A stretch of DNA of 64,000 nt from Strigamia acuminata (taxonomy: Eukaryota), in NCBI GenBank assembly GCA_949358305.1, contig OX442314.1:17732001-17796000 (forward strand), in the 5' to 3' direction. Under the pieces are notes generated by a model. It did no database searches and was not told the DNA's origin. It worked only from the letters and a program-made list of their open reading frames with translations. Position numbers and translations under genes: made by a program. Below are positions 5,717 through 55,202 of the stretch, piece by piece (within the stretch, counting starts at the first letter, position 1; each line of letters starts with the position of its first letter).

Positions 5717-6146
5717 ATGATTTCAACAAAGTTGTTTGCGTTGATAACACTGTTGCTAGCTGTGGACTTGTGCGGCGGTCGGAGACTTAGGCGACATCAC
5801 ATGAGGCTTTGTTTGGTTCAAGAAGATGGTGGTTTGGAAAGACGAGAAACGCGGGCAACTTTTATATTTACGGGAACAGTCCTCAAAGTTTACCGTAAAC
5901 CTAAACCGGAGTTGTACAAAGCGCAAGTGTTTGCAAGGAGAGTTCTTAAAGGCGATAAGATGTGGACAGATAAAGAAGTGATGATAGAAGGATTTGGAAA
6001 CGATTTACTCTGCTCGGGCCACGTGCGAAAGAAAGACACTCGCATTTTTTTCGCCGTCCAATCGGAAAAAGGCAAGTGGACGTTAAGCTCGAGCGTGATG
6101 AGATTGACCATTGCAAACTTGGATCGAATTACGGCCGCCATCAAAG
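5717..6146 (+). CDS. Agrn: Agrin first coding exon A: signal peptide + NtA domain (143 aa + 1 nt)
   Basis: In-frame TAA at 5696-5698 precedes the ATG. Hydrophobic leader MISTKLFALITLLLAVDLCGG. NtA motifs LERRE, IFTGTV, RVLKG, EGFGN..LC, DTRIFF and LSSSVMRLTIANLD match vertebrate agrin NtA (LERREEEANVVLTGTV...GFGDPLIC...DTRIFF...LNSSLMRITLRNLE, recalled). Donor AAAG|GTAAGA at 6146/6147 is phase 1. Confidence 0.93.
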
Positions 6147-9100
6147 GTAAGAAGGCTTTACTGCAATGTCTGTCAGGATGAGTGGAAACATTTTTTCGCA
6201 CCATTCTGGCCGGGTTGTTCGGGCAGATTTTTATACTTTTCTGCTTGTTACGATGGCCGGGGTGAAATTTGACAATAACAGACGAGTTTATTGAGTTTGG
6301 GGCGTTGTTGTGGAATAAAAATAATTGTTGAGGGCCTTTTTGATGTTGTATTTTCGAGGGAAATAGTCACAGGTGGTAATGAATTGCCTCACCTTCGTAT
6401 TATGGGGCCGCAGATTGGATGGTGAGAACGGTTGTTATTAGAGTTGGGTTTAAATTTCGTATGGATTATTTTTGGATGATTGTGCAAAAATGGGTAATGA
6501 TCAATTTGTTTTGAGGTGAGCGTGAAAAATGTATAACCACGCTGGGAAGAATGCATGCATGGATTTTACATCTTTTCTTTTAAATGCAAATTAGTAAAAA
6601 CAAATTCATTTCTTTATTTCAGAAAATAAATTAATTTTTTTTAACTACTTATGTTTGAATTAAAGACGCTAATTTGAATGCATGAGGGAAGGGGTGGCAA
6701 TGTACATTTAAGGTATTTTGTTTTATTTTTTTTGTTTTGCATAAGTCTTTTGCAAGAAGTTTTGGAATTGAGGACAATAAATGACTGGAAAATGACAGAT
6801 TTATTGGGGAAAAAAATTTTTTTTTGTGCAGGAGGTTTAAAATATTGTTATTAGAGGAACTGAAGAGGCGACGTATATTCGTTTTTAAAAGATTCGGTTT
6901 TAAAAAAAGAAGAAAAAATTATTGCGTCGTGTAAGATGAATAAAAGCTTTTCATCGTGGGTTAATTTTGATAATTTAATTGGGCCTTAAATCAAATGTTT
7001 GGTTAAAAATTTTAAAAAACGTTTTGGGCACTTATACGAATAAAATTTATTGCAACGCCACACGATGGATGAGAGATTTGTAAAAAGCTGCGACGATAAA
7101 TGGGACTAGGGCATTTATTAATGAGAAGCGGCAAATGCTAAAATGACAAGTTTTAGTACCTTCCAATTTGATGGTTTTTTTTTTTTTTCACTTTCGGTAT
7201 TTTATTTTCAAGTACAAAACAGTTTAAAACGTAAATTTTAATTGCCAAGTACGAAAAAAAATGGTCATAAACATAATATATATACAAAAAAGTCATTTAT
7301 TTTATAAATAACAAGTTTAAAATAAACAAACGTAGGTTTATTTATTTTCAACTTGTTACAGGCAAACGTTAAGACGTGCAGAAAAATGAATTAACACCAA
7401 TAAACTGGGTTTTTGAGTTCGTATGTTGACTTTTGGTTTGCAACATTTATATTCTAAGCCACACAATTTCGATGAGAATGTATTCCTAGCAATGAAGGAG
7501 ACACTTTTATTTATGACTTGGTTGCTTTATTTGCCGGTTGGAATAACACGTGGGGAGCATGGAGGAAATGGAGACAGAAATTTGGCGCCAGAAAAAACAT
7601 TTTAAGCCAATTGTGTCAGTCTACGAGTCACTTATGCAATTTTCCTTTTTTGTTATCTTCATAAAGTACTTGAAGACAGAAGAGGTTAAAGTGGTCGAAC
7701 TTTCTTTTTTTAGTACATGATTTTAATTTATAATTTTTATCTTTTTTTTTATTACTTTTTTTTTAATAATAATTATTGAAAAATTATATTTGTTGGTAAA
7801 AGGAGGGAATTCATTTGCACTCTCTTGGAATCAGTTAGTCTAAGCATTTGCCAGATGTCGTTGCATATATTGATTTAAAAAAGAGAAACGCTAATTTTTC
7901 TTGTAAAATGAAGACTTAAATGTATGCTTTCAGTAAAACATCTGACAGCTGAATAGGCCGCACCTAGCCGTTCTAATTTGTAAACAAGCACTGAGTATTA
8001 TTTTACAGAAGAATCAAGATCACCCTTTGAGCAACACCTATTATATGCTGTTTGGTGTTGCAATGTTTAAGGTGTGGTGCGTTATTATTAAAGGCTTTTT
8101 GAAATGATGTAATGCTCTCTAATTTGTATTCAAGTAGACTAAATGTTTTTTTTTAGTAAACCGAACCTTGATCATTCCAGATACATCCTAAAAAAAAAAA
8201 AACAGCTACAAAGCACAAAGAAATGTGAATGACAACATTTAAAAACACTTTTAACCAATATGACGTCATGAGATGTCAAAAATGGCGCGTAGTTTAAAAA
8301 AATACAGATAAGGGGTCAAGAATGATCGATAAATTTGGTCACAGAGCCTCGTGCAAGTAGATTTCCATCAGAATAATTAATTATTTGAGACGATTCTTTT
8401 GCACAAGTCCCAAGTTCCATAGACATAGCGCAAATTTAATTTGTATGATGCGGGTCAAGGTTAATTAATTCCTTTTCTTGCTTGCTCAGCCATTTTTTAA
8501 AATTCAATATTTAAAGGAGGGGGTCTTTTTAACCCCCCACAAGTAGCAGACCTTTGCCCACTTTTTCAACCGCCTACCAGTGTGCCCTACCCCGCCTTTT
8601 TTGCGATAAGCATCGCAGTGGGTAGATGAAAGAGGCGAGGGAGGGAGATTTCTGTTAATTCCCCAACCAACCCCACGTCTTCTTAGCTCGCGGCATGGGT
8701 GGATGTGGAATTAGAGGGATTCCATAAGTGGAATTTCCGAATACAAACAAACGGCATAATGGTGCCAAATGCTTTAATATATTGCCTTCCTTTCAAAAAG
8801 CGAATGCAATAACTTTGGTCTGTGGGATCGTAAAATTATTCAAGTGTTGGTTATGTCCATTAGATTTTTTTTAATGGTCGATTATGAATTGAAATGTACT
8901 TCATAAAATTAGCATTTAAAAGAACGAGGACCATATAGTTATGAGCTTTACAAGTCGATTATAATAAGACTGGCATTCGTACACCTTGACCCGGGTTTTC
9001 TTAGGAACTTGTTACAAATTGATGGAAAAATCCTTTTTTAATGCAAGGAATGAGAGTTGAGAGACCCCTGCTATGCTCGTTATACGCACCCCAGCTCATA

Positions 9101-12100
9101 AAATATGGTAGGAGTGAAATGGCATTTAATTAAGGTTATTGGCAATGAAGATATTATGATGGTGCTGGACAAGCATTATATTTTACGTTAATGGACGAGG
9201 AAATTTGTGGGGTGAATTGTTAGTACGAAGCAAATTAAAATCAGAGTGTGACAAGGATATATATATTTTATTATAAAATAATAAGGTGAGGTGCTGGGGC
9301 GAGGAATAATGGGTGAAATGTATGTGTATGGCTTGTCTGCAGACTGTTCTCCCTTATTTGTGGCTCTATTTGACTCAAACGTTTGTATAATGTACGTCAA
9401 CTAATAACTGCGACCTCCTGTGGTGCTGCGTTCGCAGAAAGTAAAAACTATTTAAGTTTGCCTCTCGGTTTTATTGTTCTACAAATGACTTTTTACTTAG
9501 ACGTCTCATTAGACTAGCGTATTGTCTGATATTTGGCTATCATTTTGTACAACTCATCAGGGGGTAGTGAAACTTTGATGACTTGTCATGTGTCCTATGC
9601 AATGAATTTTTTATATATTTTTTTCTTTTCATTTTTTTTATGCTTAAATTTTTACATGAAAAAAAAATTTACTGTCGCCAGCTTGTCGCTGTTGGTGAAG
9701 TTATCATCTATTCAGAATAATATTTTATTTTAAAAAAAAGTTAACAGAAGCTCTACCTAGGGTCAACTAAGTTCGTTGCACATTTTTTTTTAATAATGTG
9801 ACATTTTGTATGTCAATTTGCTTATTTTTATTTTATTTTAAAAAAACACCTTTTTTACGTTGTTTGTACGAACAAGAAAAAAAAAGAATTTGAAGTGATA
9901 AATGTTAGTTACCGGTATCGGTATTGAGCTTAGAGTGCAGGAATCGTGATGAATTGATGTGCTTTGACTAATGGATGGCAAAGGCCACACTGGAAATTTA
10001 CATGATAAGTGTAAAGTGTCAAGACAGCGAAAACTGGGGCGATATTTTTCTTTCTTGGCTTAAATTCTGTGAAATTAATCAAATTGTTATGCAATTTTTA
10101 TTGAGTGATTTAATATGCTGTTTATTCGACGTGCAATATAAATAATTAGGATATTTTTCTTAGGATTACGCACTCTGACACTAATTGACACGTCTGATTA
10201 TGCAATCTCAATAATTGATTTAAAGTGCAAAAAGTAGAAGATTAAAATTGGGTCATGCATGCGAAATAGTGTAGTTGGCATAGTAACAAATCTATAGAAC
10301 TAATTATTCGTTAAATTTGTTTTTGTTTGACTGGGAAATGTGGAATGGGGGAGGACAAACAAGTTGAGTAGCTGCAATAAAGGCGGACAACTTGTAACCG
10401 GTCTTTCAGCTACATATGAGTTGATTTTGGGCTGGTTTAGGTCGTCAGAGTTAATCGAATTTATTCAAAAACATGTTTTCTTTTATTTTCTGTTTAAACA
10501 AAATTGTCAGGTGAATAGAATTTGTTGCTGACTCATGTAATCCCGTTAAAACCCACTCAGGGAAACAGATGGCTCTATAAAAAAATGGAGAAGAAAAAAG
10601 TTCAAGAATTCTTAGTACTCATCTGCATATGACTTATGGACAATAAGCATTAGTTCAGACGGTTAAATGACCTTTTAACCTTTTATATGTATCATTGCTC
10701 TTTTGGAGAAGCTGTTTTGTTATTACTTTTTTTTTTTTGCTTTTAAATTTTTTTTCTTTCCCGTTGCAATGTGAGAAAACAATTTGGATTGTATTGCGGG
10801 CGGTTAATTTTTTGAGCTTCCTCATCCGGATTTGCGTGATGGGAGTTTGTGATGGTGAATCCACAAGGGCATGAAGAAAAAATAAAGACCACCTCTAATG
10901 TAGACTACAATGTTGACATGTTAATGGAAAATTATAAATTTATTAATGCGACCTGCATGATGATGATGGCTGGGAAAAGAAAACACTTTTCGGCATAATT
11001 TACATATAGTGATTTTTATTACTTTTTTTTTTTTTTGGATTTTTTAAAAAAAAAAATTTTCGTTTTTTTTTTGGACAATAATAAAGATTAATTGTTGTTT
11101 CTTTTCACGTCAAATATGGAAAAGTTCATTAGATAAATTTATTTTGGAAAAATAAAGACCTGTGGAGCCGTGAGTAGTTTATAGCATTCCATACTCATCT
11201 TTGACCTCGGAAGGTTAGGGTTGAGAAAAAAAGAAATTGAGCCAACCATAACTAGAGTAAATTTGTAAGGGGAAGATGCACTGGTTTTGCCAGTTCAAAA
11301 TTTGAACCTAGTATCATTTTGATAATTTATAGCCATCTAGGGGCCGACTTCAAATGGCCCGGAAATGGGTCTTTGAGGGGGTGCTATAGTCATGTTAAAG
11401 ATGTATTGGAAAGAAATGCGATTGCATGTGGGAATTTTGTTAATAAGTGTAGCCCGCTGTACATGGGTGGCCGAATGAAATTCAACACTACGTCAAACAT
11501 GTTTTGTCACGATAATTTCAATTTTTTTTTTAATTGAAAATTTATAACTTTTATTTTATAATTTTTCAAAAAAAAAAAAGTTGTTTAATGAATTTCACTC
11601 GAGGGTGAGACGAAACTGGCCACATTATGCATATCGGTAATTGAAAGGGACAATCATTCCAAAGTCCATAAAAGACGTCGTAACGTCATCATTCCAATTT
11701 CACATAGATGCGCAATGGCACTCAAAATGTTGGTTAAAGGATTTAATGTGGCTCTTAAAGACCTCAAAACATGCATATTGTAATTTATTTAAGCCCATTA
11801 TAAATTCTGCAGTAGCCTAGTTAAGGCTGGATTACAACAATATTCTTAATAAAAATTGTGCTGAAAATGGCCGTGACGTTTTGGTTTGAAGTAATTTCTT
11901 CGGGCAATGCTATATATAAAAGCAATCAAGAAGAATAGACTTAATTGTAAGCCATACCTAACAAAAAAAATCATTACTCGTTGTGATATAGCTGTTGGTG
12001 GCACATACCTTAGGTGTGTGATTTATTTGATGAACAATACAGTAAAAATGACATCGCCCGCAACAAAGCTGCAATTGATAAATGGAAATTTGTACAAAAA

Positions 12101-12610
12101 ACTGGTTGTTGAGAAGAAACGGTTTAAATTGTGTTTTCTTCAAAATTTCAAACCATTAACTTGTATTGTTTACCCGGGGAATATAAAGTCAAGATTCTAG
12201 GCCATTGACCCAAGAGGTAGATCCGGAAAGGAGATGGGTTATAAGAAAATGCGAGCAAGGGTTTTAAACATTACAAAGTTGGTAGAAGAAATATTCCTCG
12301 TTATATGTGATTTATATATGTTTGAGGATTTTAATCAGATTAGTGTAAGTGCTGAGACTGAAAAATGCGTTCAAATTTCCTTTTGAGGAAAGATCTTGAA
12401 AAGGAAATTCATCGAGTAATTTTCTTTCTTCTCAGTGCTATATACAAATGGACTGCAATTGAATTTGAATGGTTATTGAAAGCTGATCTTTTTTTTGTCT
12501 GCTCAATTGAGAACTCGAATTGAACTATTAGAATGGCAAATAGGAGGATTGAAAGAGGGGTTTTCTATAGTTCAATTACTATTTCTCCCGTCTTTTAATA
12601 TAATATGTCC

Positions 12611-12760
12611 GAGGGATTGAATTTTCTGTCAGAATAAAGGGAAAATGCAAAATGAAGATGATGGCGAGGGTGTATACGTTAGAAACGAGATTTATAATAT
12701 CATCTCCTCTGGACTTGGACACGAGATAAAGTTTCGACCCACACGTTGTGCTTGGAATGC
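12611..12760. repeat. Dispersed diverged repeat, copy 2 (homologous to about 130-265)
   Basis: See copy 1. Weaker similarity appears to extend upstream to about 12450. Confidence 0.7.
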
Positions 12761-14961
12761 AAAATCAGATTTGTGGAAGGTGTTTTTTTTTTCTTTCTCT
12801 TTTATCCATGATTTTTTTTTCCTTTTTCCTTTTCTCTTACTCGTGTAAAAGAAATTGGGTTGAATGTTTTTCACTTAAGCTCGATTCCAGTGGGAAAAAT
12901 TCAACTGCCCTTTAGACAAGTCATATATTGCAAAATAGACCAGAAGCTGCTTGCTTCTACGTTGCATTACATATTTGATAAAGAACTTGTTTTACAAATG
13001 GTTGGCTGGCTTTTTTTTTTGTTTAACTTTTTCCCCTTGATTATTAGTTTCACATTTCGTTGTTAACTTATCTCAAGTCATCCATCAAAGGAGCACGTAG
13101 CGAGAGTTCTCTTCTTCACACATCCTTTTATTCGTATGTAGGATGGCTCCCTGGAGAGTTTTAAACCCTTTAAAGTGCAAAATACCGCGCCTAGGTAAGT
13201 TTATGGATTTAGGGGTCAAATTACTTAGAATGTTTGAAAAAGTTTGAAATCTGTAATCAGGAGGAATTGTTCATAATTTGAAGGTTTTTTTAAAAAAATT
13301 TCCTATCGAGTTTAGCATATAAAGTCTTTATTCAACATGTGCGACTGTTTACGTTCCTTTGATACAATAATGTTTTTTTTTTTATCATTTATTTATTTAT
13401 TTTGTAAAGCGGGAAAACAAAAGGTAGAGTATTTTTTTGCACCAATTTAAAAAAAATAATAATTTGCTCACGGAAAACTATAATCTGATAACAGGAAGAG
13501 CTGACAGAAAGGAATTTAAGTTTGCTGAGCGGAAATTCTTGAAGGGTCTTTGGAAGATTTTTTTTTTCATTGTTTTTGTTTATTTTTTTTAAAGATAAAG
13601 ATCTAGTTACATTCTCCAATACCTGGCTTCATTTCACATCCACATTTGATAAATGTTAGTTTTTTTAATCTGGCATTTATTACATCTTTCTTACGTGTTT
13701 ACGTGAATTGACGGTTAAAACAATTTTTGGGGCTTCGGTGTGCTACATTTTTTATTTTTTTATTTTTTGTTTTATTTGGGGGTTGCGGAATATAGATTGA
13801 CAGTAAAAGGAAATAGAGAACCATTCTTTTCGACTGGAATCATTAAAGTGAGGGAAAACAAATTGATTGTGGTTTGTTTTAATCAAATTCCAATGTTTTT
13901 TATTGAGAACCTACACGAAATTGAATTCACACAAGATGTCTGTCTAATTTATTGCTCTATTGAGCTGTTTGGAAAAGGAAAAGTGAATGAGATAATTGCT
14001 CCGTTTACCGGAATGCCGACTAAAGGCCAGAGTGCCGCACTTCACCTGAGGTGTGCCACATGCTTGACATCGATCTGAATATTTAACAAGACTAAGGTGT
14101 TAAGAAATAATGAAAATTTAGTGCGTAAAATGAATGAATATAGCGAACTTAATACAATTATAATCTTTCCTTGGAATTGAATTGAAAGTTTGAGAGGAGC
14201 AACTCGTTTATTGAATGGGGAGATGAGGAAATGACTGGTGAGTATACAGCACTAAGGAAACTGATGACTGACTGAGTGCATCCTGTCAGGGGAAGAATGA
14301 TTCGATATTCCATATTTAGACTAAAAATAATTAAATAGAAATAGAAATTGGTACAGTATGTGAATTAATTGTAAGCAATCTGATAAGTTGTTGCTTAGGT
14401 TACATCGTCTTGGAAAGACGAATTTGAATACAATGATACTATGAAGTAGTTTTAGCAATGTGGACAATCTTTTCATTATAAAATGCATTCCCGACTTTTC
14501 AAACAAATTTTTTCAATTGTATTATGAAATGCAATATTTAATATAAAATAATAGGCCTATACTTGATTCAGAAAAATGCTATACATTTTGGAATGCATTA
14601 AATGAAAAGCACTATATTGTAGAATAAATTTTTTAACCATAATGGGTCGAAATGAAATATAGTTGTAAAATAGAAATAAACCTTTCTCTAAAGTCGTACC
14701 CCACTGTTGGAATAGGAACATCCTCTGCTTTCTCACTTTTCGCCATACGAAAACGGAAATAGATGATTAGAGCATCATAGTTTGTCGACGGTAACAGTTC
14801 GCAGTAGTATTTAATTATATACAACTTAGTATTTACAAACTGTTGGGAGTGGACGTGCATTGAAGGACAAACATTTTTTTCTTTTTTTTGCCTTAGGGTT
14901 TGTAAAGTTCGCTTAGTCACGTGTCGTTGCAGCAATCTTAACACTTTCATTCATATTTACA

Positions 14962-15394
14962 ATGGAGTTATCAGTGTGGTTACATTGTATTATGGGAGCT
15001 GTTATCACTGCGCATATTAATTGCGTCGGTAGGTCTCGTATTTTTCCGCGTGATCTATGTGTTTTGCAGCTTGAAGGCGACGTGTGGTCGCGAGTATCTA
15101 AGGCTGATTTAATTTTCACGGGAACTGTTGTGAAAGTTCATCGTCGTTTAAATCGTGCTCAATACCGCGCTCAGCTGTTGGTGAGGCGAGTACTCAAAGG
15201 TGAAAGGACGTTAACTGATCAGGAAGTGCTCGTTGAGGGATTGGGGAACAGCAAATTGTGTTCATCGCACGTGCGGAAGAAGGACACTAGGATTTTCTTT
15301 GTGAACGAAATTGATGGGAAAAAGTGGAAGTTGAATTCCACTTTGATAAGACTTACCATTGCAAATTTGGACCAAATTGAAGCAGCAGTTGCAG
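14962..15394 (+). CDS. Agrn: Agrin first coding exon B: signal peptide + second NtA domain (144 aa + 1 nt)
   Basis: In-frame TAG at 14914-14916 lies upstream. Leader MELSVWLHCIMGAVITAHINCVG. NtA motifs IFTGTV, RRVLKG, EGLGN..LC, HVRKKDTRIFF and LNSTLIRLTIANLD are present. It aligns without gaps to exon A (61/113 identical, hand count). Donor GCAG|GTATGA at 15394/15395 is phase 1. Confidence 0.92.
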
Positions 15395-18300
15395 GTATGA
15401 ATTTTTATGTTTTTATTATGTGTTACATGTGCAAAATTCCATTTCGGGAAATAGATTAAAAGTTTTATAAAATATAGAAAGGCATGTTTAAATTCCGGTA
15501 CATACTTGCGCAGTTTTAAGCGTGTGCTGAAACGACCAATCACAGCGAGGCTGGTCATTTTCTGTGAGGATTTTTAAATAAAATGGCGGCTGATGGTCGG
15601 AAATTTTACAAATCTGACCAAATTTTTGTGTTTTTTTGTGAATATTTTAATTTTGAAATAATTTTTAGAGGTTAAAAATTTGCATTGAATATTGTGTCAT
15701 CAAGGGCTAGAATCTCACAGTTGATGTTGACACGTTAAAATTATTTACACAAGTTTATAGATTATCCGATAGAAATGTGTCACGCAGGCCATGACGTTCA
15801 TTTTGGCTGAAACTGGCCTCCTGATTGTAAAAGTGAGATTTAGCGTTATCTATAACAATTTTTACTGTCAACACGGGGTTTCCTTTTTGACAGCTGTTAT
15901 CGGTTGATAGTACTGAGACTTAGTGATTACCTTGAAATCCATATGGGGAGAATAAATTAACCCTTTTGATTAGTTTCCCGTCCATTTCCTTTCCTGCATA
16001 AGCAGATAAGAGTATGTTCATGAATGATAGACCCCCAGTGTGCACTCATTTTACCTACTTGTTACGTCTTGGAAAATTGTCTCGCAGCTTATTACGATGC
16101 TTATTGATATCAGAATGTCGTCTCATTATTTCTTCTTACTAAAGAGGATTTTCGCTTTATTGTAGAGAGCCTTAAATTTTGGAATCGGGAAACGAAGAGA
16201 TAGGAAATACTTCACGAGTGAGTCATTGGAGTCACTTTTCTTTCCTATCTTATTACTATTAGATATTTTCCGGTCTTTTGGGTGTGGTGGAGGAAAATAG
16301 GATGGTCAGTTGGGCGAAACGGTAAAAATCCTCTGCAGTGCACCCAAATTCGTATAATAATTGAAAAATTATAGAGTTTTATTTTAATTTTTTGGGATTA
16401 AGTTTAAGTTTTCACACTAGGAATTCTAAGCATTGATTTTTTTGTGCCGAGTTTTAGAGTTTTACCCTCTTGATACCTGTATGGCTGGGTCTGGCTGGTT
16501 CGCTTTTATATCTCAGGCGCACACTTATTCAAACATGAAAATGATGCCATTGGTTATTTCCATAATAGAATCATGGGAAATGTCAGCACTATTTTCGTAC
16601 CAGAAGAAACTGAAATATTTGCATAGTATAACGGTCTACAGGAGATAGAAAATGTCGGGAGAGTAATAACTTATGCGTTTCGATTTTGGGAATACTGTAA
16701 GCGGAACAAAAAAAAATATTGAATCTTTAAAAAATTATTTAGTTGTTATTGGAAATAATAAATTCATGCATGTGTTTTTATTTTGGCTTTTCAAATTCTG
16801 AGTAATTAGGTTCGGGTTTATATTTATTTTTATTTTCTGCTCACGTTTGTGGTCGTGTGCGATGCTTCGCCTTGAAGAGATTTTTTTTCCTTCATGGTGT
16901 GAAAATGTGTGGTTAGTGAAGGAGAGGAAGGAAAATGAGTTTTAAATGTATGACCTCTGGTCGCAATTATCTCTTGGGCTTCGAGAAATCGAGTTAAAAT
17001 TCTCTCCTGTGGATTAAGAAATTAAAAAAAAAAAATCTTACTTATTCTAAAAGCAGTCGTGGAAATGAATTGACTTTTATAAATTAATTGCCTCTTAAAT
17101 CAAATGGCTATTAAGGTTAAGTAAAAATTTATTGCTCTTTGTATCTGAAGATTTTTCTATCTGAGGTGTCGAGTGGGCTGCCTTTCACCTCTTAATTGGC
17201 ATTGAGTATTTTTTTTTTGGGGAAGGAGCAAGAAATATGTGCTTTGTACTTGATGTGATTTTTATTGCATTTAATTATTATTTACTGCTACTTGGAAATA
17301 GACTCGTTTTATTTTCACCTGTTCTGTGGGTGCTAACTAGGACAGTCCAATTTGATGTTGCAATCTCTCTCTCTGTAGTGCATAGCCACTCGTATAGACC
17401 GTTTAAATAATTTTTTTTTAATAACAACCAAAACCAACACCTGGGTAAAGTATTTTTTATTTTTTTCAAATCAAATAAATTCGGTTAATTTGTCACCACT
17501 TTGCGGACGTCATTTTCATTAGCTTTAGCTCCTTTCACAATTAGTAAAACAATCATGGACGTAAGTTTACATTTTTTTGTTGATCTTAAATTACACACAA
17601 AACTGCGAGTGGCTGCCCATTGCTAATTGTTTTTTTTTCTTCTCTTGAATAGTTACACGTAATTACTCCCAAGTCATTTAAAAAATATATTTTTTTTCTC
17701 TCTAAAACTTAATACCAAATTGTTTTTGATAGTTGTTTTATCAAACTGCAATTCTCTTAATGGTTTTTGGTTTTTTTTAAATTTTCTGATATGTTTTTTA
17801 AAAGTTTGACGTTTATTTTACGAGCAGTCGTTGACAATATATAAAGTGTAAGCAAAAAATGGAAATCCAGTTCTCACATGCAAGTTGATGGATGAGCAAC
17901 ATGTTAAACATATCAGTAAAAGGCGTAGCTAAAAAATAGGAATGTGTGCGATCAGTTTAGAAGGGGAAAAAAGTGAGGGTGTGAACCCCTTGGAAGAAAC
18001 TATGCCAAAGCGACTTAGGCGTTTAATTAGTAGTGATACGAATGAAAGATATTGCAGCTACCTGAATATCTAACGGTAGACAGCGATTGTGAGTTATAAG
18101 TGCTCATAAGGTTGGTTGCATTACAAAGTAGCTTGAATTTATCCCGGTGTTTTCTTTGATAAGTATCGCAGCAGGTAGAAGATGGTGGAGAGAAGGGGAG
18201 GGAGAAGTTTGTTAATACCTACATTTGCCTTAGGTGAGGGTGGACCTGGAAATTAGCGAGAAATTCCTATCATGCAAGGGCATTCAACGGGAAGTTGTTT

Positions 18301-21300: not shown

Positions 21301-23254
21301 TGGCCTTGCGGAGACTTTAATCCATGTCAAGCGCACCTGTTTATTTAGAAAAGAATTGCACTTGTTTTCGTATAAAGGTGTACGCGACGTATTTATGCAA
21401 CATTTATGCTCCATTTCCGTTGGGTATTATTTTTCAAACTTATGGTATCCTGGTGTTTATGGTTCGTAATTAAAAATCCTTTTTTTCTTTTGATAATTGT
21501 AAGAGCGTAGAAAATTTAAATGAAAAATCTGTGGAGTGGAAACAAAGTTATTGTTCGTACAGAGAATGATTCGGGAAATTATTGTGAAAGGCTTGAGAAG
21601 GTGAAGGGGATGAAAAAAGAGAATTTGATTAAAAATACATGAACGTAGACGTTTTTTTCTTTTCTTGGATAAGGACAGATAGTGCATTGGATCCAGTTTT
21701 CGAGCAGCAACAACAAACTAGCTTCTTTTTTCGGTTTGAATATACGTATATATTTTTTTTTTTACTTCTATTTCACGTAATGCAATTGCATTTGTTTGAC
21801 TTTCGTCTGATTGCTGCTTTCTTTATTTTCGGGGATTTAAATGCCTGAGCTTGTTTGTCACTGAGAAATTAGATCTCGCCCTTGCAAGACCATATGCTCA
21901 TGAATTATAAAATATGGTCAGTTAAATGCACTTTCCACGGAGTCGCATATTGTCATGCGGGCTCGAAGTAATGATAAAGATGTTGGATGTGCCATTTTCG
22001 TTTAGCTTAACCCCCTGCAGCGCGTATGAGAAATCCGTGCACTAACTTTAATCTCTTGCTCTCTTTCAAACCGGCGATAAAGCAGAAGGTTGTATGTTTA
22101 GCTTATCTCGGTCTGCATACACATGCAAGTGACTCGGTTTGCATGCATATAAAGTGTTTGGATGTTCTGATTTAACATTGCATGAATCTGTTTTCACAAT
22201 TTTTTTTTTTGAAATTTGCTAGTATCAGTATTGACTTAATTTTCCTATGGTCCATTTGTACAAACAAGATGACAGAGCCGAGTTTCACAAAGTCCCTGTA
22301 AGCAGTTTTCTAATGTAAGCAGCAGTATAGATTGAAAGGACATTTGTGGAAAGGAAATTACAGTGAACCAACAAATCTTGAGAATTTAAGTACACGTTAG
22401 TATTGGTTGAAATTTTAACGAGAAAAATGTGGTTAGTTTGCGATTGTATCAAGAATAAATTGGTTTGTGGCACGAAAAGTGCAAAATGTTCATTTTTTGA
22501 TCCCGAAACAAGGGACAATTTCTGTGTAAGGAAGTTTGACTCGAAAATGACGCAATTTTGACGGCAATTATCTAGTCTGATGGCAGTATTTCGATAAGTA
22601 CGGTAATTACATCAATTTTACGTTATGTCTTGACACGCTTCACTGCGCGGTCGTAAAAAGCATGGAAACAAGCTACCAAATTGCATGAAGTCACTTGACG
22701 TATTGTATTGCATTTCGGAATTTAATAACGCCAGATAGTGCATTTCATACATGGTTTAACTGGGGATATTAATATTTAGGCCCATTGCACCAAACATGCT
22801 GTAACATCGAACTACGGAGTAATGCGAAAAATGGCATTGTAGGCTTTATTGAGAGTGTAATAACTGCTCTTACAATCACAATCACATCATTAAAGCCGTG
22901 GTTAAAGTAAGCCAACGAGCCAACCTACTTTTTGACTGGTCATTTCTCAATGACCACAACTGGACAGTAAAAAATAATGTCAGGTATTTAATGACAGCAA
23001 GAACAGCTGTCGTTCAATACAAAATTCGATTCCACAACGCCCATTTTTCACAAAACGTTTACGTAGTGTACCGTGGATGGAAGAACAGTGCCAAATCTTT
23101 TGAACTGGAGAACTCATTCGCTTCGCTCACTCATCCAATTATATAATTTGATATAAAAATGCAGTTAAACACGTTAAATAAGTAGAGGGTTACTTGGCGC
23201 TGGCTCTTTATTTGTTTATTATTTGCAAAAAGAAATTTTTAAACGTGTAATTTT

Positions 23255-23450
23255 TGGAGTGTTTAGTAGTTGAATGTTGTATTGTAGAAATGGAGAGACA
23301 GATTTTGAGCGATGCTCGTTGCTCAAGCTCTTCTCTCTAACTGCTTTATTACCTAGCTTTTCTTACAAGGAGTGCCCCCACATATGGTGACGCTCACGTA
23401 ACATAAACAAACTGAGACACATGTGAAAGTTGGGGGTGAAAGACACCCCA
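23255..23450 (-). repeat. 3' LTR (196 bp)
   Basis: Direct repeat of 24499-24694 with TG...CA termini. AATAAA on the minus strand at 23345-23350. Confidence 0.93.
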
Positions 23451-23619
23451 ATATCCCCTCAATTGCGAACACAGAGAGCAATTTAAGGAGAGCAATAAAA
23501 ACTTGAATAACAAACATTAGTAAAGTATAATGGAAAGGAATAACACTAGGATTGAAAAGAACATAGAAATTGAATCATCGTAATTGAACACATTGTAATT
23601 GAAATAAATTGTAACATGG

Positions 23620-23950: not shown

Positions 23951-24083
23951 ATAATTTTAACATTGAAATAACATTCAGAATAAGTTTCATTAAACATTGA
24001 AACAAATGAAATGAGTTGGAACAACTCTCTCCTCCCCCCGAAAATGGCTGGAAACAGCTAGAATGGTCCAAAACGCGGAACCG

Positions 24084-24232
24084 AGCGTCCACAGCATGCA
24101 TGGTGAACGACGTCTTCAGCGCCGGCGTATTCGGAGTGGAAAAGGCGTTGAAATGTTGCGCTGGTCGGCATAGTGCGACCAGTCGGATTCCTGGCCGTAC
24201 GGCGGCTGCAGCGAGCCAACAATACCTGCCAT
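24084..24232 (-). pseudogene. Frameshifted gag N-terminal remnant
   Basis: The ATG at 24232 downstream of the PBS gives MAGIVGSLQPPYGQESDWSHYADQ, continuing in another frame as HFNAFSTPNTPALKTSFTMHAVD. This resembles the G..F....DW..Y.ER...F..AN...K...L..VG pattern of Mag-type Gag N-termini. Pattern recognition only; no search was run. Confidence 0.55.
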
Positions 24233-24485
24233 TGTGGAATCGGAACCGCACAAAACACAAGGCCTAACCACTCGAACGCACGTGTTCAAAAGTCCGAGTT
24301 TGGTTGAAAAGATCATTTGAATAGTAGCACCGAAAATACGCTTGTAAATGGAATGGAGTGGTCAGCATGGTAGACAGCATGGTCAGCATGGTGGACAGCG
24401 TGGTCGAAGGCCGGAAAAATGGTCGAAATTTCGCAAAAAATCACAAAAAGTTACTGAACCTGTAGTTGCATGGATTCGTATCGTA

Positions 24486-24496
24486 CCTCGTCGCCA
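24486..24496 (-). promoter_or_regulatory. Primer binding site, complementary to the 3' end of tRNA-Ser(GCU)
   Basis: Minus strand reads TGGCGACGAGG. Metazoan tRNA-Ser(GCU) ends ...CCUCGUCG-CCA (recalled). Confidence 0.8.
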
Positions 24497-24498
24497 TT

Positions 24499-24694
24499 TG
24501 GAGTGTTTAGTAGTTGAATGTTGTATTGTAGAAATGGAGAGACAGATTTTGAGCGATGCTCGTTGCTCGAGCTCTTCTCTCTAACTGCTTTATTACCTAG
24601 CTTTTCTTACAAGGAGTGCCCCCACATATGGTGACGCTCACGTAACATAAACAAACTGAGACACATGTGAAAGTTGGGGGTGAAAGACACCCCA
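24499..24694 (-). repeat. 5' LTR (196 bp)
   Basis: Direct repeat of 23255-23450, adjacent to the PBS. Confidence 0.93.
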
Positions 24695-26490: not shown

Positions 26491-27898
26491 GTGCAATAGA
26501 GTTGTTTAGTCTGAGGTGCAAGATAAATGGTTAAGAAAGGTTGTTTAAGCAGACCTCACTGTCCCTCAGCAAGGGAATATAGAAAGGAAATGTCCCTTGG
26601 GTGCATTCACATGGTCAAGCAGTGCAGCCATTTCGGAGAGAGATCTAAGGGGCAAGAGAGCAATTCGTTTAAATTACTCTCTAAAGAATTATTCTTTGGA
26701 ATTAGTTTAATTTTCCCAATTCACTAAAGCTGAACATTAAGGGGTTTGTGCTAGTTGGTGTTTTGAGATTCTGACCACGATTTATTAGTGGGGCTGACAT
26801 AAAATAAATGTAGTTTGAAGTTGAAAATCGAGTTTTGCGCTGATTAAATAATTTTTTCATCCTTTTGTTGAGTTTTCTGAGATTTTTGCGATGAAAGTTT
26901 CAATATTTGATGTGATTAAAGGATTTAATTTGAAGAATACAGTCTGCTGCTTATGGCTGGAAATTGTTAGCGTGTTGGAGAGGAATGCATTTTGTGCATG
27001 CAAGTACTGTTTGCTAAAGTGATAATCCCGCTGGGTTGTTGATTGACAGATATTGTAGATGCTGTATTAAATTTTGAAAATCTGCTTGAAAGGATTTCTC
27101 AAGGGTTGGTTCAATTGAATGAACCACTTTTAAAATGTGGTGGGAGACATACAGTTGGGATCAAAATGTAAATAAATAAAAATGTAAATAAAAAATATAT
27201 TTTGTTTGAAATGGTCAAATGCGATAAATGGTGCGTGTACATCACGAATGTGATTATTAAAGGGAATGAGACACTGAAGTAATTCTGGCTGAAAAAATAT
27301 CTGCAGTTTTATTAAAGGTATATAATTTTTTTTTTATGTTGCCTTATAAGGAAAAGTTTGGACGGCTAACATATTGAGCTTGGTGAGCAACGTAGTTTGT
27401 CATTGCTAGTGAGGGCACTCTATGTGACCTCATAAATTGTATCAAAATGCATATGGAATAGATGGTTTAAGTGAGAGTGATGAGTGCAGTGAGCGGATTA
27501 TTTCTAAAAAGATATTTATTACATTTATACGTACATAACGCTCCTATGCAGTAAAACGTTTTCTTAAAACTAAATACAGAAATCAGAATTTTGCGACACA
27601 ACTGTGTATTGATTCATTGGTTATCAGGCATGGAGAAATGAGATTGCTAGCAAAAAAGTAACAGATTGCCATTCGGAAATGTTCTGGTTCCTAAAGATAT
27701 TTACAAGACAAGGAGCTGAGTTTTTTTTACATTCTCTACATTTTGTAGAAAGAGTTTGTTTCGAGGTATAGACCTTGGGCTGGTGTCATAGCTTGAATAT
27801 TTTGCCGATAGATTGAGTTATAGCTCTGCAGAACCAGCCGCCATTACTATATTGATAACAACAGACTTGACTTTGAGGTCATGTTTCTTGCTTAATTT

Positions 27899-43500: not shown

Positions 43501-45059
43501 GATGTTGTTTCTGCTTAAGCATAAACATGATTAGTTAATCACGAAGTCTTCTGCATTCAAAAGATGCATAAAATTTTCTAGTCTCAACAATGGAGTAAAT
43601 TTACTTAGAAGCATTTTTAGGTACTTGGGCACTTTGTATTCGTGTTTAGAACACAGTTAAAAGGATTTCTGAGATCTCACAGCTTTGATTCGACTGCCCT
43701 GGCTTTTACTTTTTTTTTTTTAAAGTTTTAAGTCTCATCAATCAATATTGGAATCAGGAATGTCATTTGTTCAACATCTTATAAGATTTTTATTTCTGTC
43801 TTCAAATTGTGATGTGCAATTTTGAAACACAAATCTATATTGGGCAAGAAGTTTCTTTTTATATCTTTTGTTTTTGACAACTTGTTCAGAAATTGAGTGG
43901 CATTGGTTTTGACAAGTTGAAGATTATCCGTTTGGAAATACCTTTTTATTATTGAGAATTTGCGTCAATTGTCAAAGACCATGACAGAATCTGCGCATTA
44001 AACGTTTAAATATTCTGGTTGGACATTGTATATTTTTCGCAATACGGTACGTTAATCGGTGCATTAATTTTACTATAATTACAGTTTTGAAGAAAAAGAT
44101 TTTTTTTTTAATGAAGCTATTATTGTAATTTCGTCGAATAAACAGGCTGCATAAATTAATTTTTTTTAAAATAAAGACCAAGATAAACTGTCGTGGGATT
44201 TTATGTCGGGAAATTTCAATCATTAATCATGATGTGAATTTACATTAGAATTTTAAATTTTAAACCTCACTATTTTTCAAGTTTGCATCCTTTACTCTTC
44301 AGTTAAATATTTTGGCTTTACAAAAGAAAAATGACTGAAAAAATAGCTCTTGTTTACAAAACTTGTGCTGAAACATTTTTTTGAATTTATTTTTCTTTAA
44401 TAAACAAACATTTTGTGTTAACCTAATAACTAGACGCAAACAAATATTTGTTCAAAGTATGAATAAAAATTTTTTTTAAATCTGTTTTAAATCGATATTC
44501 AAGTTAATTAATGGGTTTAATCTTTTGGCTCAAATGATTGATTGATGATGGCTTGTAACGTGTTGACACCGTGGCCTAAGTCTTTCTCTCTCCTTCGGTC
44601 ATTAAAGTCGTCTTTGATCGACTTTGCAAATTGATGACTCACCTTTAAGCCTTACGTTTGTATAATAGCGAGAAGAAAAAGGGATGAAATAAAGAGGATT
44701 GTAATATTTATTAAAGATTTATTTTAAAATTCGAAACGGAATATAAAAAGGTTGATCTTAGTTACTGGGTTCATCGATTCGGTCTGGCAAGGGAAAAAAG
44801 AGGAAAAGAGACGAGACTCGGGCAATAACGGAATTGTCTCTAATAGAATACAATTCTTATTTGTTTGTACGTCATATAAATAGGAGAGGATCGATAAATG
44901 CAAGGGCTTATCATTGCGTGCTGATACAGTTATCGAAATAATGGCACTTTATTATTTGTTCTCCTTGGGTTGAGAGTACTTGGTGTGAAAAATTGTGCAA
45001 GTGGTGCGGTGCTGGCTTGCAATCACAACGATAGTCATGAATAAATGGAGGAATATTTG

Positions 45060-46245
45060 AGTTGTAAAGCGTGTGTAGAAAGAATAGAAGCCGACAGTTG
45101 TGTGTGTGTGTGTGTATGCGTGCGATAGAAAAAGGAGGAGAAAGAGAAAGAGTAGCTCAATCTTTTGCCCTTGGTCTATGCACCCGTTCGATCGATTGGA
45201 CGCTGGGAGCAGCTCCACTTGTAGATATTCCTACACAACCTGAGCCTTCAACATTTCTGGGCTGGCTGCTGCTGCTGCTGGTGGTGCTCGTGCTGTTGCT
45301 GCTTGCTTCTTTCCCCCTACCACCCGGGAAATGGCAGTTGACTCAACCACCGATTGTCATGTACGCCCCATCAAGGTGTAGAGGCAGCTTGAGCGCGCGG
45401 TCGACACCATTCGCGCTGAGCGAAAAGGTGGAAGAGGAACGGAGCTAGGAAACGCTGGCACAAGTGGCTCGATGCTGCACGCGTCTGTCGTGTGATTTCG
45501 AGGGGATCTAGTGGTCAGAAGATGGTGTGAGCGAGCTTACCTGTGTCTTGACCGTCGTCGTGTCGAAATGGAGCTGCGTTCGGCACCATTCTGAAAAGCG
45601 TTGGTTCGTCAAGCGTGATGCTCGTCCCGGTTCCCTAGCAGCTGCTGCTAAATCTGTCTTGGATGATATTCGTTGCAAATTTGTGTAGGACGCGCTCACC
45701 TGAAAGCGCTTTGGGCGTGGTCGGATCTGGCGTTCAGGTGGGGAGAAAGTGAGGGCAGGCCGGCTGGCGAATGCTGACCCGTTCCGGCATCTGTTTCACG
45801 GATTTGGTTGCGAGGACACGTGGGCTGACCCATCAAACAGGTGACATTGTTGATTATTCACGGTTACGACGAGTTGTGTGTGTGCGCTGTCCTGTCATGA
45901 TTGTATTATGGATCTCATGATCGAGCATATCTGTTGGATTCTTCTTCTTCTTCTTCCACCACATTGTAGCGTGTGGCCTTAAAGAGACGAATTTGAGCAT
46001 TAAAAGTATCGTATCACGAGTGGAATTTATCATCGCGCCAATTGTATTATGTGCGTTTGGAAGAAGGTGGATGCGGCTTTTTTGGTGCGGAGTCGCGTTC
46101 GCTAATAACCGTTGACATATCTAACTGCATATCTTGCGTATGGCTTTCGGGAAAGCGCTAACTGCCAAGTCGACATCGTTGTATCGCGATTACGGAATCA
46201 GAGCTGGCAACGCACGATCCGAGACACTGGGCCGGAGGCGGCCGA
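45060..46245 (+). promoter_or_regulatory. GC/CpG-rich putative internal promoter and 5' UTR of the transmembrane isoform
   Basis: About 1.2 kb of raised GC and CpG with (TG)n, (CTG)n and (CTT)n runs, directly upstream of the TM exon. The TSS cannot be determined. Confidence 0.5.
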
Positions 46246-46555
46246 ATGCCTCCTACCTCCAACTCGACGACGACGGGGCACTTTCGGCCGAGTTCGCGCC
46301 CCAATTCGAACGCGGCCATGCCTCCCACCATGGTCATTCCGCTCAAATTTGATCCGACTGCCAAAGAGGATTCTAACGCGATGCCCGATCACCACTTCAC
46401 TGACCCAGGCGGGGGTGGGGTGTCGACCAAAAGAGAGGACAGCTCTCCATGCCTATGTGGGTGGCCATTAGGTCGACTCACAGCTCTTTTACTTCTGCTC
46501 ATCGTCATTCTAGTCGTCTTTGTGCTCATCGCTGGACTTCTTCTTTACTTCAAAT
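46246..46555 (+). CDS. Agrn: Agrin alternative first coding exon C: cytoplasmic tail + type II signal-anchor TM helix (103 aa + 1 nt)
   Basis: In-frame TAA at 46159-46161 lies upstream. About 75 polar residues are followed by GR-LTALLLLLIVILVVFVLIAGLLLYF-K. The donor AAAT|GTAAAT at 46555/46556 is phase 1 and coincides with the switch from GC-rich to T-rich sequence. It joins the shared exon as T|AC = Tyr. Confidence 0.8.
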
Positions 46556-47677
46556 GTAAATATTTGATCTTTTATTTATTTTTATTCCTACGTTTTCGAA
46601 GAATTTTTTTATTTTTTATTTTTTTGTTGTTTTATTTATTTTTTTTATATTTTTTTGGGGGGATATGGTATATGGAGGAATAAATTTTCTGGTTTTTGAT
46701 AGCGCGTATAGATTAGGTTTATAATGTATTGAATTTGAATGTCTCCTGGTGACAATTTGGACGAAATTTACGAGGAGTGTGGTCAGCATGATGGTAATTT
46801 GTTGACGGTTGAAAAGTCATAAATAATTTATGCTGAATGCGGCCCGCGTTTTAATGATTTATCTTTATTGCTCGCAACAAAAATTAGACGTGTGAAATTT
46901 TGATTATGTTTGAGCGTAGCAAAAGCCACACAAAGATTGGCTTTTTATGTCAACAAATTTAATAGGTGGATTTTTGGATAGGTTTCCTTTGGAGAGGAAG
47001 AGAGGAGGGGTCTTTTATCTCATTGGAAACACGCCAATTTGGCGCTCATTTGAATGGACGCAGGTGTGGACTGGAAGAAAACCCTCTTGTACGCATGCGT
47101 ATGAGCCTGATGTCCTCGCCAGAGGCACATCCTCTGTTGACGCGTTCATTCCGATAATGGATCATCCTTGTAATCGGGAGATAATTTCTCTCCCACGCAT
47201 TATTTTTCTCCCCCGTGGCGACACGCGGGGTGAGGCGAGCGTGTCTTTCAACGGTTGTGTCAGCAAATATTCAAAGTGGCTCAGGTTCCATTTGCCAACA
47301 TTTTTTAACCAATTTTACTAAATGAGGAATGAAATTGAGCCAAAATTGGTTTTTTTCTATAAATATATTTTTTTTATTTTTTATTTTTTTGTAACCTCTT
47401 TCGCGACCGCTCTTCACTTGCACTCAGCCGTGTTTTTAAGGGGAAAAAATAGTTTCTATTTTGTGATTAATTTTAAACGAGCGCGTGCCTGAGTGTACAG
47501 TTAGAGGGCAAATTAGACAACCCTATTCCCAACACAGTATACGATGTTGTTTTAAGCAGAGAGTAAATCATTTCCCCACGGTGTTGTGAGAAAGGAACAG
47601 CCGGTTGCCGAAGTGAAATGAGTATGAGAGACTCGAAGAATGAAAGTCTGGTTTGATGTTGTTGTTGCCTGTTTGAT

Positions 47678-53900: not shown

Positions 53901-55166
53901 TCTTTAATATTATACTTGAAATAATGTGAAGGTTTTTTTCTTCTTTCATCTTTTAAAAGCGAAGTTTTATTTAAACTTTGTTTTCAATTTATTAGGTATC
54001 GACTAATACAATTTGAAGATTGCAATCTGTTGATTTAAAGCTCAAGAGAACGGGTTCAATCCAACATCGATATGCGGTGACAAATCTCAAGTGTTTTTAA
54101 GTCGCGGGCCGGCTCTCTCTGGAGGGCAGTCGAGATAGAAAAGTTTTAAATTTGTTTTCTCTACTTGAGCCTTTTTTCTTCTTCTTTTCTTCGATTCGTC
54201 CGTCGAAATTAGCTTTGGGTGCTGCTAATCCATCTGTAAATATTGAATTGTAACAATGCAGGAGAAGAAAAGAATATATTTTGGGCATTTCTTTTCCTAT
54301 CCGACGTTTCTTTTCATGACATCCGTCTCTTTTGTATGCTGCGCGGTGGTTTCCATTTACGAGACTTCGCTCAGGAGATTTGGATTTGGGAAAAAAAGGT
54401 GTGGACGGGGTTGAAATGATATGCTTCAATTTTTTTTAAAACCTATAAATATAAATATAGGGGAAATTAAATTGTCTTGATTTTAAATTTGTTGAAAGCG
54501 CTTTTATTTCTCTGCTTTGTTGTTTTTGTTTTTGGTTTAGTTGTTGTACGACACGTTATTTTTATGTTGTTTATTTTTATATATTTACTTTGGAAGTGGA
54601 GACAAATTGGAAATCTAAGCGTAGAACCCCACTATGTTTGTATGGGGGGGACATGAGAAATTTGTTGCATCGATTTGCCAATGTGAGAAAATCCAATACT
54701 GTCAAGTTTATAAATTTCACTTAGGAAAAAATTTAATATTTGCAGCAAGGGGTTTGTGTTCGAGTTGTTTAATTGGAATTTTTTCCTTTTTATGTTTGGT
54801 ACGTGAGGGTATTTTTCCGGTTCACCTAATACATTTCCTTTAAAAGAAGATCAATCAGGGTGGAAAATAAAATATACGAAAATGTAGCACGGGTTAGAAC
54901 GAAGGAGGTTTATTATGTGGGAATGAATTGCCTTTCAAATTCAGCACCATCTGTGTGCTGTTGTCCATTTGTCAATAGCCAACAATCGTCTCGTTATGAA
55001 GGTGACATTAGGCATTTGCTTATCGTTAAAGCTGTAGTTAAAAATTTGATTAATTAAAAGTAATGACAATTTATTTCGAACATAGACATAATTTGTGTTA
55101 AATGTAATCGAAATGTGCATTATTCATATTAAAATATCTGATTATTTTATTTCTTTTTCATTTCAG

Positions 55167-55202
55167 ACGTTCCATATCAAGCAAGACCACCAATAAACGA
55201 AG
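55167..55202 (+). CDS. Agrn: Agrin first shared exon, 36-nt phase 1-1 linker (D/Y)VPYQARPPINE
   Basis: Long pyrimidine tract TTTTATTTCTTTTTCATTTCAG| and strong donor GAAG|GTAAGA. It is open in phase 1 and Pro-rich, like the vertebrate (D/Y)KPG.HFTP.PPTPP linker between the N-terminus and the first follistatin domain. Confidence 0.85.

What the first reader, a model, noticed from the sequence alone, without database searches (positions are those of the whole stretch)
5717..55202. Variable-first-exon agrin locus: two secreted NtA cassettes plus one transmembrane cassette feeding a single constant region
Seen: three ATG-initiated exons, each with an upstream in-frame stop, its own targeting signal and a phase-1 donor, all in frame with one 36-nt downstream exon. 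Known: vertebrate agrin has one NtA (LN, basal-lamina) start and one TM (SN) start. Inference: this animal picks among at least three N-termini by promoter choice, a small version of the clustered protocadherin or chelicerate sDscam variable/constant layout. I am not aware of a described agrin with duplicated alternative NtA exons, but I cannot check the literature.
Basis: partly seen in the sequence, partly recalled or inferred. Interest (0 to 1): 0.88.

Follow-up and report, generated by a model that had tools for sequence, protein, structure and literature searches.

The report
Agrin gene with duplicated laminin-binding head
This animal DNA, likely from an arthropod, holds two old, intact copies of the exon for agrin's laminin-binding head and one membrane-anchor exon upstream of a single shared linker exon, so one agrin gene likely makes two secreted forms and one membrane form where vertebrates have one of each.

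Summary
The window holds two signal-peptide + NtA exons (5717-6146, 14962-15394; 54% identical, synonymous sites saturated, both intact), a transmembrane exon (46246-46555) and a 36-nt exon (55167-55202). All three starts end in phase-1 donors in frame with the 36-nt exon. That exon is the NtA-to-follistatin linker of agrin and the only one in the window. The transmembrane exon plus linker align without gaps to bee and beetle transmembrane agrin. The two NtA copies are sisters in a tree, so this is an old tandem duplication within the lineage.

Corrections: (1) NtA-versus-transmembrane starts are known from mouse, and transmembrane agrin was already predicted in insects; only the second NtA is new. 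(2) Both NtA exons have strong acceptors just before the ATG, so they are first coding exons, and promoter choice is not shown. (3) No follistatin exon lies in the window and no RNA data were available. (4) The protocadherin/sDscam likeness is one of layout only.

I found no paper describing a duplicated NtA exon. The scan noted the same layout before on other DNA (e1-7499325, unchecked). Verdict: a new variant of a known kind, moderate interest.

The parts
5717..6146 (+). NtA cassette A1: coding part of an exon for a likely signal peptide + agrin NtA domain, ending in a phase-1 donor
   Evidence: Pfam NtA E 1.3e-20; PDB agrin NtA E 7e-11; donor rank 6 of 4077
5373..5483 (+). candidate 5'UTR intron(s) before A1: donor after 5372 with a CTAAT branch-like site and acceptor at 5424 (51 nt), or donor after 5424 with acceptor at 5484 (59 nt); inferred
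   Evidence: acceptors with 17 and 18 pyrimidines in 20 nt; donors rank 121 and 130 of 4077; G>C skew falls to about 0 in 5267-5567
14962..15394 (+). NtA cassette A2: coding part of an exon for a likely (weak) signal peptide + agrin NtA domain, ending in a phase-1 donor
   Evidence: Pfam NtA E 7.2e-23; model pLDDT 92.7 matches chicken NtA, TM-score 0.83; donor rank 30 of 4077
14791..14896 (+). candidate 106-nt 5'UTR intron before A2, ending in a strong acceptor (exon would start at 14897; in-frame TAG at 14914); inferred
   Evidence: acceptor 19 of 20 pyrimidines; donor after 14790 ranks 166 of 4077
45001..46600 (+). largest GC-rich island of the window; likely promoter and 5'UTR of the TM form, with a candidate UTR intron (donors after 45737 or 45840, acceptor at 45970)
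46246..46555 (+). TM exon: cytoplasmic N-terminus + type II signal anchor, ending in a phase-1 donor; true start ATG uncertain (46246, 46318, 46330, 46381)
   Evidence: ungapped match to bee and beetle TM-agrin, counted by eye on sequences printed
46140..46352 (+). 70-codon ORF in another frame that overlaps the 5' part of the TM exon: uORF, or the true N-terminus if there is an indel or a small intron
   Evidence: 59% C-ending codons in 46240-46330 against 37% in the TM frame; candidate introns listed
55167..55202 (+). 36-nt phase 1-1 linker microexon (whole codons read VPYQARPPINE), first common exon
   Evidence: homologous 12-residue unit delimited in horseshoe crab isoforms P0151/P0152

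Best explanation
The window holds two intact paralogous NtA exons, a transmembrane exon and one linker exon, which are likely three alternative first coding exons and the first common exon of a single arthropod agrin gene, each start likely transcribed from its own promoter. Shown in the sequence: each start exon ends in a phase-1 donor in frame with the 36-nt linker, and no other linker, follistatin exon or third NtA lies in the window. Shown by comparison: the two NtA exons are sisters, long diverged, and keep the family core. Inferred: an ancestral unit (short untranslated leader exon, small intron, signal peptide + NtA exon) was duplicated in tandem. Transcription from leader 1 or leader 2 would give secreted agrin with NtA head 1 or head 2, predicted to dock on the laminin coiled coil of basement membranes. 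Transcription from the GC island at 45-46 kb would give type II membrane agrin. The two secreted heads most likely divide expression by tissue or stage; different laminin affinity is possible but untested.
For: Identity: Pfam NtA for both; PDB agrin hits; the A2 model folds as NtA. Selection: NtA part pS 0.76 (saturated), pN 0.29, dN 0.37, no stops; both keep the Cys pair and 33 and 32 of 47 columns conserved in 56 other NtA domains; the helix-3 Leu and the Val seven residues later, named as the laminin motif in PMC3439447 (passages), read Leu/Ile in A1 and Leu/Val in A2 (alignments). Both keep a strong donor at the homologous position despite saturated silent sites. Sisterhood: SH-aLRT 100 in a quick tree of 152 NtA domains, path length 1.18. 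Shared acceptor: the linker is unique in the window; among acceptors with 15 or more pyrimidines in 20 nt, none other opens a phase-1 frame that looks like an exon (by eye); no follistatin hit (best iE 5.8) and no third NtA. Agrin orthology: from the Arg before the anchor to the end of the linker, the window matches bee agrin at 17 of 39 and beetle agrin at 19 of 39 positions without gaps, with Tyr at the junction and 12 residues before the first follistatin domain (by eye, PMC2874008 Table S1). The exon order NtA, then TM, then common exon is that of mouse, where separate promoters were inferred from a gene trap (PMC2189804 passages). Local promoters: G>C skew falls to about 0 and GC rises in about 300 nt upstream of each NtA exon, with small-intron candidates there.
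Against: No transcript evidence of any kind. Acceptors upstream of both NtA ATGs (12 of 590 YAG sites score 17 or more, and 3 of the 12 lie there; chance for both about 0.002, threshold chosen after the fact) fit a shared leader equally well. An A1 transcript must skip the strong acceptor at 14897; using it adds six residues and a stop. Bases 1-5300 carry the same strand skew as the introns (G>C z 9.3, T>A z 5.5), so transcription may start left of the window. No convincing core-promoter motif was found. The TM donor and A2's signal peptide are weak. NtA exons can sit in non-agrin proteins (P0030/L002). No full-length NtA-agrin that I could label as arthropod turned up, but those searches stop at 2000 aa or list only representatives.
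Confidence: 0.6

Rival explanations
1. Same three products, but A1 and A2 are mutually exclusive second exons spliced from one shared untranslated leader exon upstream (possibly left of the window), so the NtA head is chosen by splicing and not by promoter.
For: Strong acceptors 65-293 nt before both NtA ATGs; intron-like strand skew in 1-5300; joining A1 to the A2 acceptor hits a stop, which would enforce exclusivity through nonsense-mediated decay (the decay step is inferred).
Against: Plausible donors lie 51-111 nt upstream of each acceptor, and the skew collapses locally, as expected for local leader exons. The mouse LN/SN choice is transcriptional.
Confidence: 0.2
2. The NtA-headed transcripts share the linker but end after the first follistatin domain, giving short secreted NtA-follistatin proteins of about 230 aa; only the TM form is full length. 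This can hold together with the best explanation.
For: Spliced NtA-linker-follistatin proteins of 210-318 aa that end soon after that domain: Limulus P0014, Tachypleus P0152 and P0153, Halotydeus P0101, Cordylochernes P0128, and unnamed P0017 and the 6-member P0072 cluster from 1-2.7 kb Logan contigs. No full-length arthropod-labelled NtA-agrin among my hits.
Against: The TM exon that shares this linker matches full-length insect agrin. The short forms may be separate paralogues, broken gene models or contigs that end early. My searches could not see proteins over 2000 aa. Non-arthropod-labelled or unnamed hits P0119, P0129 and P0155 do carry NtA on long agrins.
Confidence: 0.3
3. One NtA exon, most likely A1, is an independent gene: a stand-alone secreted NtA by read-through to the stop at 6179-6181, or the first exon of a non-agrin protein.
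For: Read-through frames end 11 and 21 codons past the donors, with AATAAA within 135 nt. Precedent: P0030/L002 is signal peptide + NtA + stalk + transmembrane helix with no follistatin domain.
Against: A near-consensus donor is kept at the homologous position in both copies after silent-site saturation; no alternative partner exon was found in the window; AATAAA is common in DNA of 35% GC.
Confidence: 0.12
4. One copy is a dead pseudo-exon, or the pair is an assembly artefact.
For: A2 has the weaker signal peptide and has lost the conserved Leu and Glu near its N-terminus.
Against: 54% protein identity with saturated silent sites rules out a false duplication of alleles; both frames are open over 143-144 codons with pN far below pS; two contig sets hold 0.99 and 0.97 of the words of 5500-15480 (one study, possibly the source sample).
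Confidence: 0.05

Closest known systems
Mouse agrin LN/SN alternative N-termini (Burgess et al. 2000, PMC2189804; passages read)
   Same: NtA exon(s), then a short membrane-form exon, then a first common exon; both in frame with the common region.
   Different: Mouse has one NtA start spread over at least three exons within 5 kb; here signal peptide + NtA is a single coding exon and there are two copies. Separate promoters are supported by a gene trap in mouse and only inferred here.
Apis and Tribolium transmembrane agrin (Banyai et al. 2010, PMC2874008; passages, section 17, and parts 1-2 of 3 of Table S1 read)
   Same: Type II signal anchor and 12-residue linker align without gaps to the window's TM and linker exons (17 and 19 of 39 identical, by eye).
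   Different: Those models list no NtA start; the window has two upstream of the TM exon.
Short chelicerate 'agrin-like' NtA-linker-follistatin proteins (Limulus XP_013778652, Tachypleus XP_076333660/661/846, Halotydeus KAI1296490)
   Same: Single-exon-like signal peptide + NtA followed by the same 12-residue linker unit.
   Different: They stop after one follistatin domain; whether the window's NtA forms do so cannot be seen.
Chelicerate sDscam and vertebrate clustered protocadherins (PMC4835542; passages read)
   Same: Tandemly duplicated 5' cassettes, more alike within a species than between species, upstream of common exons.
   Different: Two cassettes instead of large arrays; an extracellular-matrix anchor domain instead of a self-recognition domain; no promoter assay, expression data or binding code here.

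Membership tests
Agrin | N-terminal NtA domain | tested here: met
   Pfam NtA 74 and 81 bits, cut-off 25; fold match to chicken NtA
Agrin | alternative type II transmembrane N-terminus downstream of the NtA exon | tested here: met
   46246-46555; ungapped match to insect TM-agrin, by eye
Agrin | linker between the N-terminus and the first follistatin domain | tested here: met
   55167-55202, best of 67,272 11-mers; homologous unit in P0151/P0152
Agrin | follistatin/Kazal repeats, laminin-EGF, EGF and laminin-G domains downstream | not testable with these tools
   no follistatin exon in the 8.8 kb after the linker or elsewhere in the window; no genome held
Agrin | laminin-binding helix-3 residues (Leu142 and Val149 of PMC3439447) | tested here: met
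   Leu/Ile in A1, Leu/Val in A2; binding itself not tested
Variable-cassette loci (clustered protocadherin, sDscam type) | paralogous 5' cassettes upstream of common exons | tested here: met
   two cassettes, sisters in the tree; no third in the window
Variable-cassette loci (clustered protocadherin, sDscam type) | each cassette has its own promoter | tested here: inconclusive
   local skew and GC change with small-intron candidates, but strong acceptors and upstream intron-like skew also fit a shared leader
Variable-cassette loci (clustered protocadherin, sDscam type) | each cassette is spliced to the common exon in transcripts | not testable with these tools
   no RNA holder listed
Variable-cassette loci (clustered protocadherin, sDscam type) | large array giving isoform-specific homophilic recognition | tested here: not met
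   only two NtA cassettes in 64 kb, though more may lie left of the window; NtA is a laminin-binding domain

The most novel reading that the evidence does not exclude
Arthropods have repeatedly turned agrin's laminin-binding exon into a small variable array. The window shows the last two cassettes of an array that continues to the left, and each head has its own promoter and laminin preference, so one agrin body is addressed to different basement membranes. Leads: intron-like skew left of A1; two different NtA proteins (P0012, P0015; 49% identical) listed on ENA contigs of the same length, 10,073 bp; the scan's unchecked note of the same layout in another genome.
Probability: 0.17. Interest if true: 0.68.

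Novelty: new variant of a known kind. Interest (0 to 1): 0.42.

Why it matters
Agrin's N-terminus decides where the protein sits: in basement membrane through NtA, or on the cell surface through the anchor. Vertebrates are described with one of each. A lineage that has kept two diverged NtA heads under purifying selection would have a third address for the same molecule, which can be tested by RT-PCR and laminin binding. The window also shows NtA exon, TM exon and common linker in mouse order in a likely arthropod, which suggests that the double start is old; the insect models in PMC2874008 showed only the TM start. Alternative first exons made by tandem duplication are a familiar device (own knowledge), so the surprise is moderate.

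Tried and rejected
No whole genome is held, so flanks and the follistatin exons could not be examined. Sequencing runs for 5500-15480: 2 holders from 1 study, no RNA holder listed; this says nothing on expression. No reads were laid on the NtA exons. On the TM exon both contig sets laid nothing, so the question of an indel there stays open. Search for longer relatives of A1: 0 of 825 candidates passed. Alignment search for longer relatives: 4 of 7998 scored candidates, one with NtA and none an arthropod-labelled NtA-agrin. JGI metagenome scan with the A1/A2 alignment: 0 of 95 pattern hits confirmed. Scan with a mite-like NtA alignment: 2 of 89, contigs of 1.5 and 4 kb, each with one NtA, too short to test tandem copies. 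Single-sequence fold of A1 was poor (pLDDT 47.6) and was not used. ESM Atlas for the TM exon gave only unnamed arthropod clusters under 0.9 (a lead only); the Atlas query for A2 did not complete. The careful tree did not finish; the quick tree is used, and 152 of the 164 sequences in hand went in (6 without a usable domain cut, 6 near-duplicates left out). A tandem NtA1-NtA2 protein was rejected: the strong acceptor at 14897 leads to a stop. Rfam: 0 matches in the window. Pfam found nothing in the ORFs of the other GC-rich patches except one hit below its cut-off. Literature: 6 searches aimed at invertebrate or duplicated NtA agrin (listings only unless named above) showed no description of a duplicated NtA exon; passages of PMC1939731, PMC10381214 and PMC4224354 had none either. 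The library lacks most subscription papers, and part 3 of Table S1 and the other supplements were not read. The search for the original laminin-site mapping by residue number found 0 papers. Scan look-ups by place and by sequence found nothing.
Full report
Observation. A1 (5717-6146) and A2 (14962-15394) each encode a likely signal peptide and a whole NtA domain (Pfam 74 and 81 bits against a cut-off of 25; agrin is the only PDB sequence match). A model of A2 built on a 58-sequence alignment has pLDDT 92.7 and matches chicken NtA best (TM-score 0.83). The TM exon (46246-46555) encodes a hydrophilic stretch and a long hydrophobic helix. All three end one base into a codon at a GT donor and join the 36-nt exon at 55167-55202 without a stop; the split codon reads Asp after either NtA exon and Tyr after the TM exon. 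On an approximate donor matrix of my own, the A1, A2 and linker donors rank 6, 30 and 5 of 4077 GT sites, and the TM donor only 497.

What the 36-nt exon is. Spliced relatives carry a short linker between NtA and the first follistatin domain: 12 residues in Limulus, Tachypleus, Halotydeus, P0072 and P0078, and 11 in P0017. Two Tachypleus isoforms part exactly after these 12 residues, and two gene models (Cordylochernes P0128, Haemaphysalis P0092) lack the unit altogether and stay in frame, so it is likely a separate symmetric microexon in relatives too. Scored against 9 such linkers, the window exon is the best of 67,272 six-frame 11-mers (20.7, next 14.3) and of 186 open 36-nt AG..GT candidates (next 6.6). 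Neither NtA exon has a linker of its own. A profile of 43 follistatin repeats finds nothing in the window (best iE 5.8), and an NtA profile finds only the two copies. The follistatin exons must lie beyond base 64000 and could not be checked.

Why this is agrin. Table S1 of PMC2874008 (parts 1 and 2 of 3 read) gives bee and beetle agrin as full-length type II membrane proteins. By eye, from the Arg before the anchor to the end of the linker, the window matches them without gaps at 17 and 19 of 39 positions, with Tyr at the junction and 12 residues before the first follistatin domain. So the TM exon plus linker is the 5' end of an agrin orthologue, and a TM start in arthropods is already predicted in print. 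The order NtA, TM exon, first common exon is that of mouse, where a gene trap argued for separate promoters (PMC2189804, passages). The organism was not identified; arthropod is inferred from the best named hits (mite, spiders, horseshoe crabs, myriapods) and from the insect match.

The duplication. A1 and A2 are 54% identical over 112 residues and each other's closest sequence: SH-aLRT 100 in a quick tree of 152 NtA domains, 1.18 changes per site apart (the careful search did not finish). In the NtA part pS is 0.76 (saturated) and pN 0.29 (dN 0.37); the flanks share no detectable similarity. Both keep the Cys pair and 33 and 32 of the 47 columns conserved in 56 other NtA domains. The helix-3 Leu and the Val seven residues on, called the laminin motif in PMC3439447 (passages), read Leu/Ile in A1 and Leu/Val in A2. 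An old tandem duplication with both copies under purifying selection, donors included, is the plain reading. An allele artefact or a dead copy is unlikely.

How the start is chosen. Both NtA ATGs have strong acceptors just upstream (5424, 5484, 14897): 3 of the 12 sites with 17 or more pyrimidines among 590 YAG sites, chance for both exons about 0.002 with a threshold chosen after the fact. So they are likely second exons behind an untranslated leader. Two readings remain. Local leaders: plausible donors lie 51-111 nt upstream of the acceptors, and the G>C skew falls to about zero with raised GC in about 300 nt before each exon. The TM exon sits in the largest GC island, with its own UTR-intron candidate. 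Shared leader: bases 1-5300 have the same strand skew as the introns, so a transcript may already be running, and joining A1 to the A2 acceptor gives a stop after six residues, which would make the two exclusive. I favour local promoters at about 3 to 1, leaning on the mouse precedent; nothing here proves it. No RNA run was listed.

Results against the reading. No transcript was seen. A2's signal peptide is weak (6 of 58 comparable proteins score lower). The spliced NtA proteins that I could label as arthropod are short and end after one follistatin domain, so the NtA forms here may also be short; my searches could not see proteins over 2000 aa. One fetched locus encodes signal peptide + NtA + stalk + membrane helix with no follistatin (P0030/L002), so NtA exons can serve other genes; no such partner exon was found in the window.

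Generality and novelty. Six literature searches showed no account of a duplicated NtA exon; the library lacks most subscription papers. The scan holds one earlier, unchecked note of the same layout in another genome (e1-7499325), with no sequence look-alike to this window; I could not test it, and I took the PMC id of the mouse paper from it. Two different NtA proteins, P0012 and P0015 (49% identical), are both listed on ENA contigs of 10,073 bp, which hints at another tandem pair but was not verified. The likeness to sDscam and protocadherin (PMC4835542, passages) is one of layout: duplicated 5' cassettes before common exons. There are only two cassettes here, of a matrix-anchor domain, with no evidence for a recognition code.

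Verdict. A real feature: the 5' end of a likely arthropod agrin gene with the known NtA/TM double start and a second, old, intact NtA exon. New variant of a known kind.

Noticed in passing
window 46140-46352 (+): A 70-codon ORF overlaps the TM exon in another frame. Its codons look more coding-like than the TM frame in 46240-46330, and by eye its Tyr-acidic-Gly-Leu-Ala-Glu-Pro-Gln stretch resembles the cytoplasmic part of bee TM-agrin. It could be a uORF, an assembly indel, or joined to the TM frame by a 76-nt intron (46333-46408; weak donor, CTAAC branch-like site). ATG 46330 in the TM frame has the best start context.
   Followed up: partly
window 1-5300: Same G>C and T>A skew as the introns, so the transcription unit or another plus-strand gene may begin left of the window; more NtA cassettes could lie there.
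   Followed up: partly
window 14897-14916: A strong acceptor in the A2 frame followed by an in-frame TAG: splicing A1 to it would give a secreted NtA-only protein or a decay substrate.
   Followed up: partly
L002:1076-2347 (P0030): Signal peptide + NtA with long insertions + Ser/Thr-rich stalk + transmembrane helix + tail in one open frame, with no follistatin domain: an NtA protein that is not agrin, in a mite-like NtA clade.
   Followed up: partly
P0014, P0152, P0153, P0101, P0128, P0017, P0072 cluster: Short secreted NtA-linker-follistatin proteins recur in chelicerates, also as spliced frames on Logan contigs: an early-ending agrin isoform or a mini-agrin paralogue.
   Followed up: partly
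P0012 and P0015: Two NtA proteins, 49% identical, both listed on ENA contigs of 10,073 bp; possibly a tandem pair in another arthropod.
   Followed up: no
window 23253-23452 and 24497-24696: 200-nt direct repeat, 99.5% identical, flanking a GC-rich patch (23951-24500); looks like a recent mobile-element or local duplication.
   Followed up: no
window 27751-28550: GC-rich patch (60%) with overlapping ORFs on both strands and no Pfam family above cut-off; likely a repeat remnant.
   Followed up: partly
window 32745-32828 and 33370-33453: 84-nt inverted repeat, 87% identical, about 540 nt apart, like the ends of a small non-autonomous transposon.
   Followed up: no
window 1975-2159 and 58235-58397; 184-270 and 12682-12763: Dispersed repeats of 70-76% identity.
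   Followed up: no
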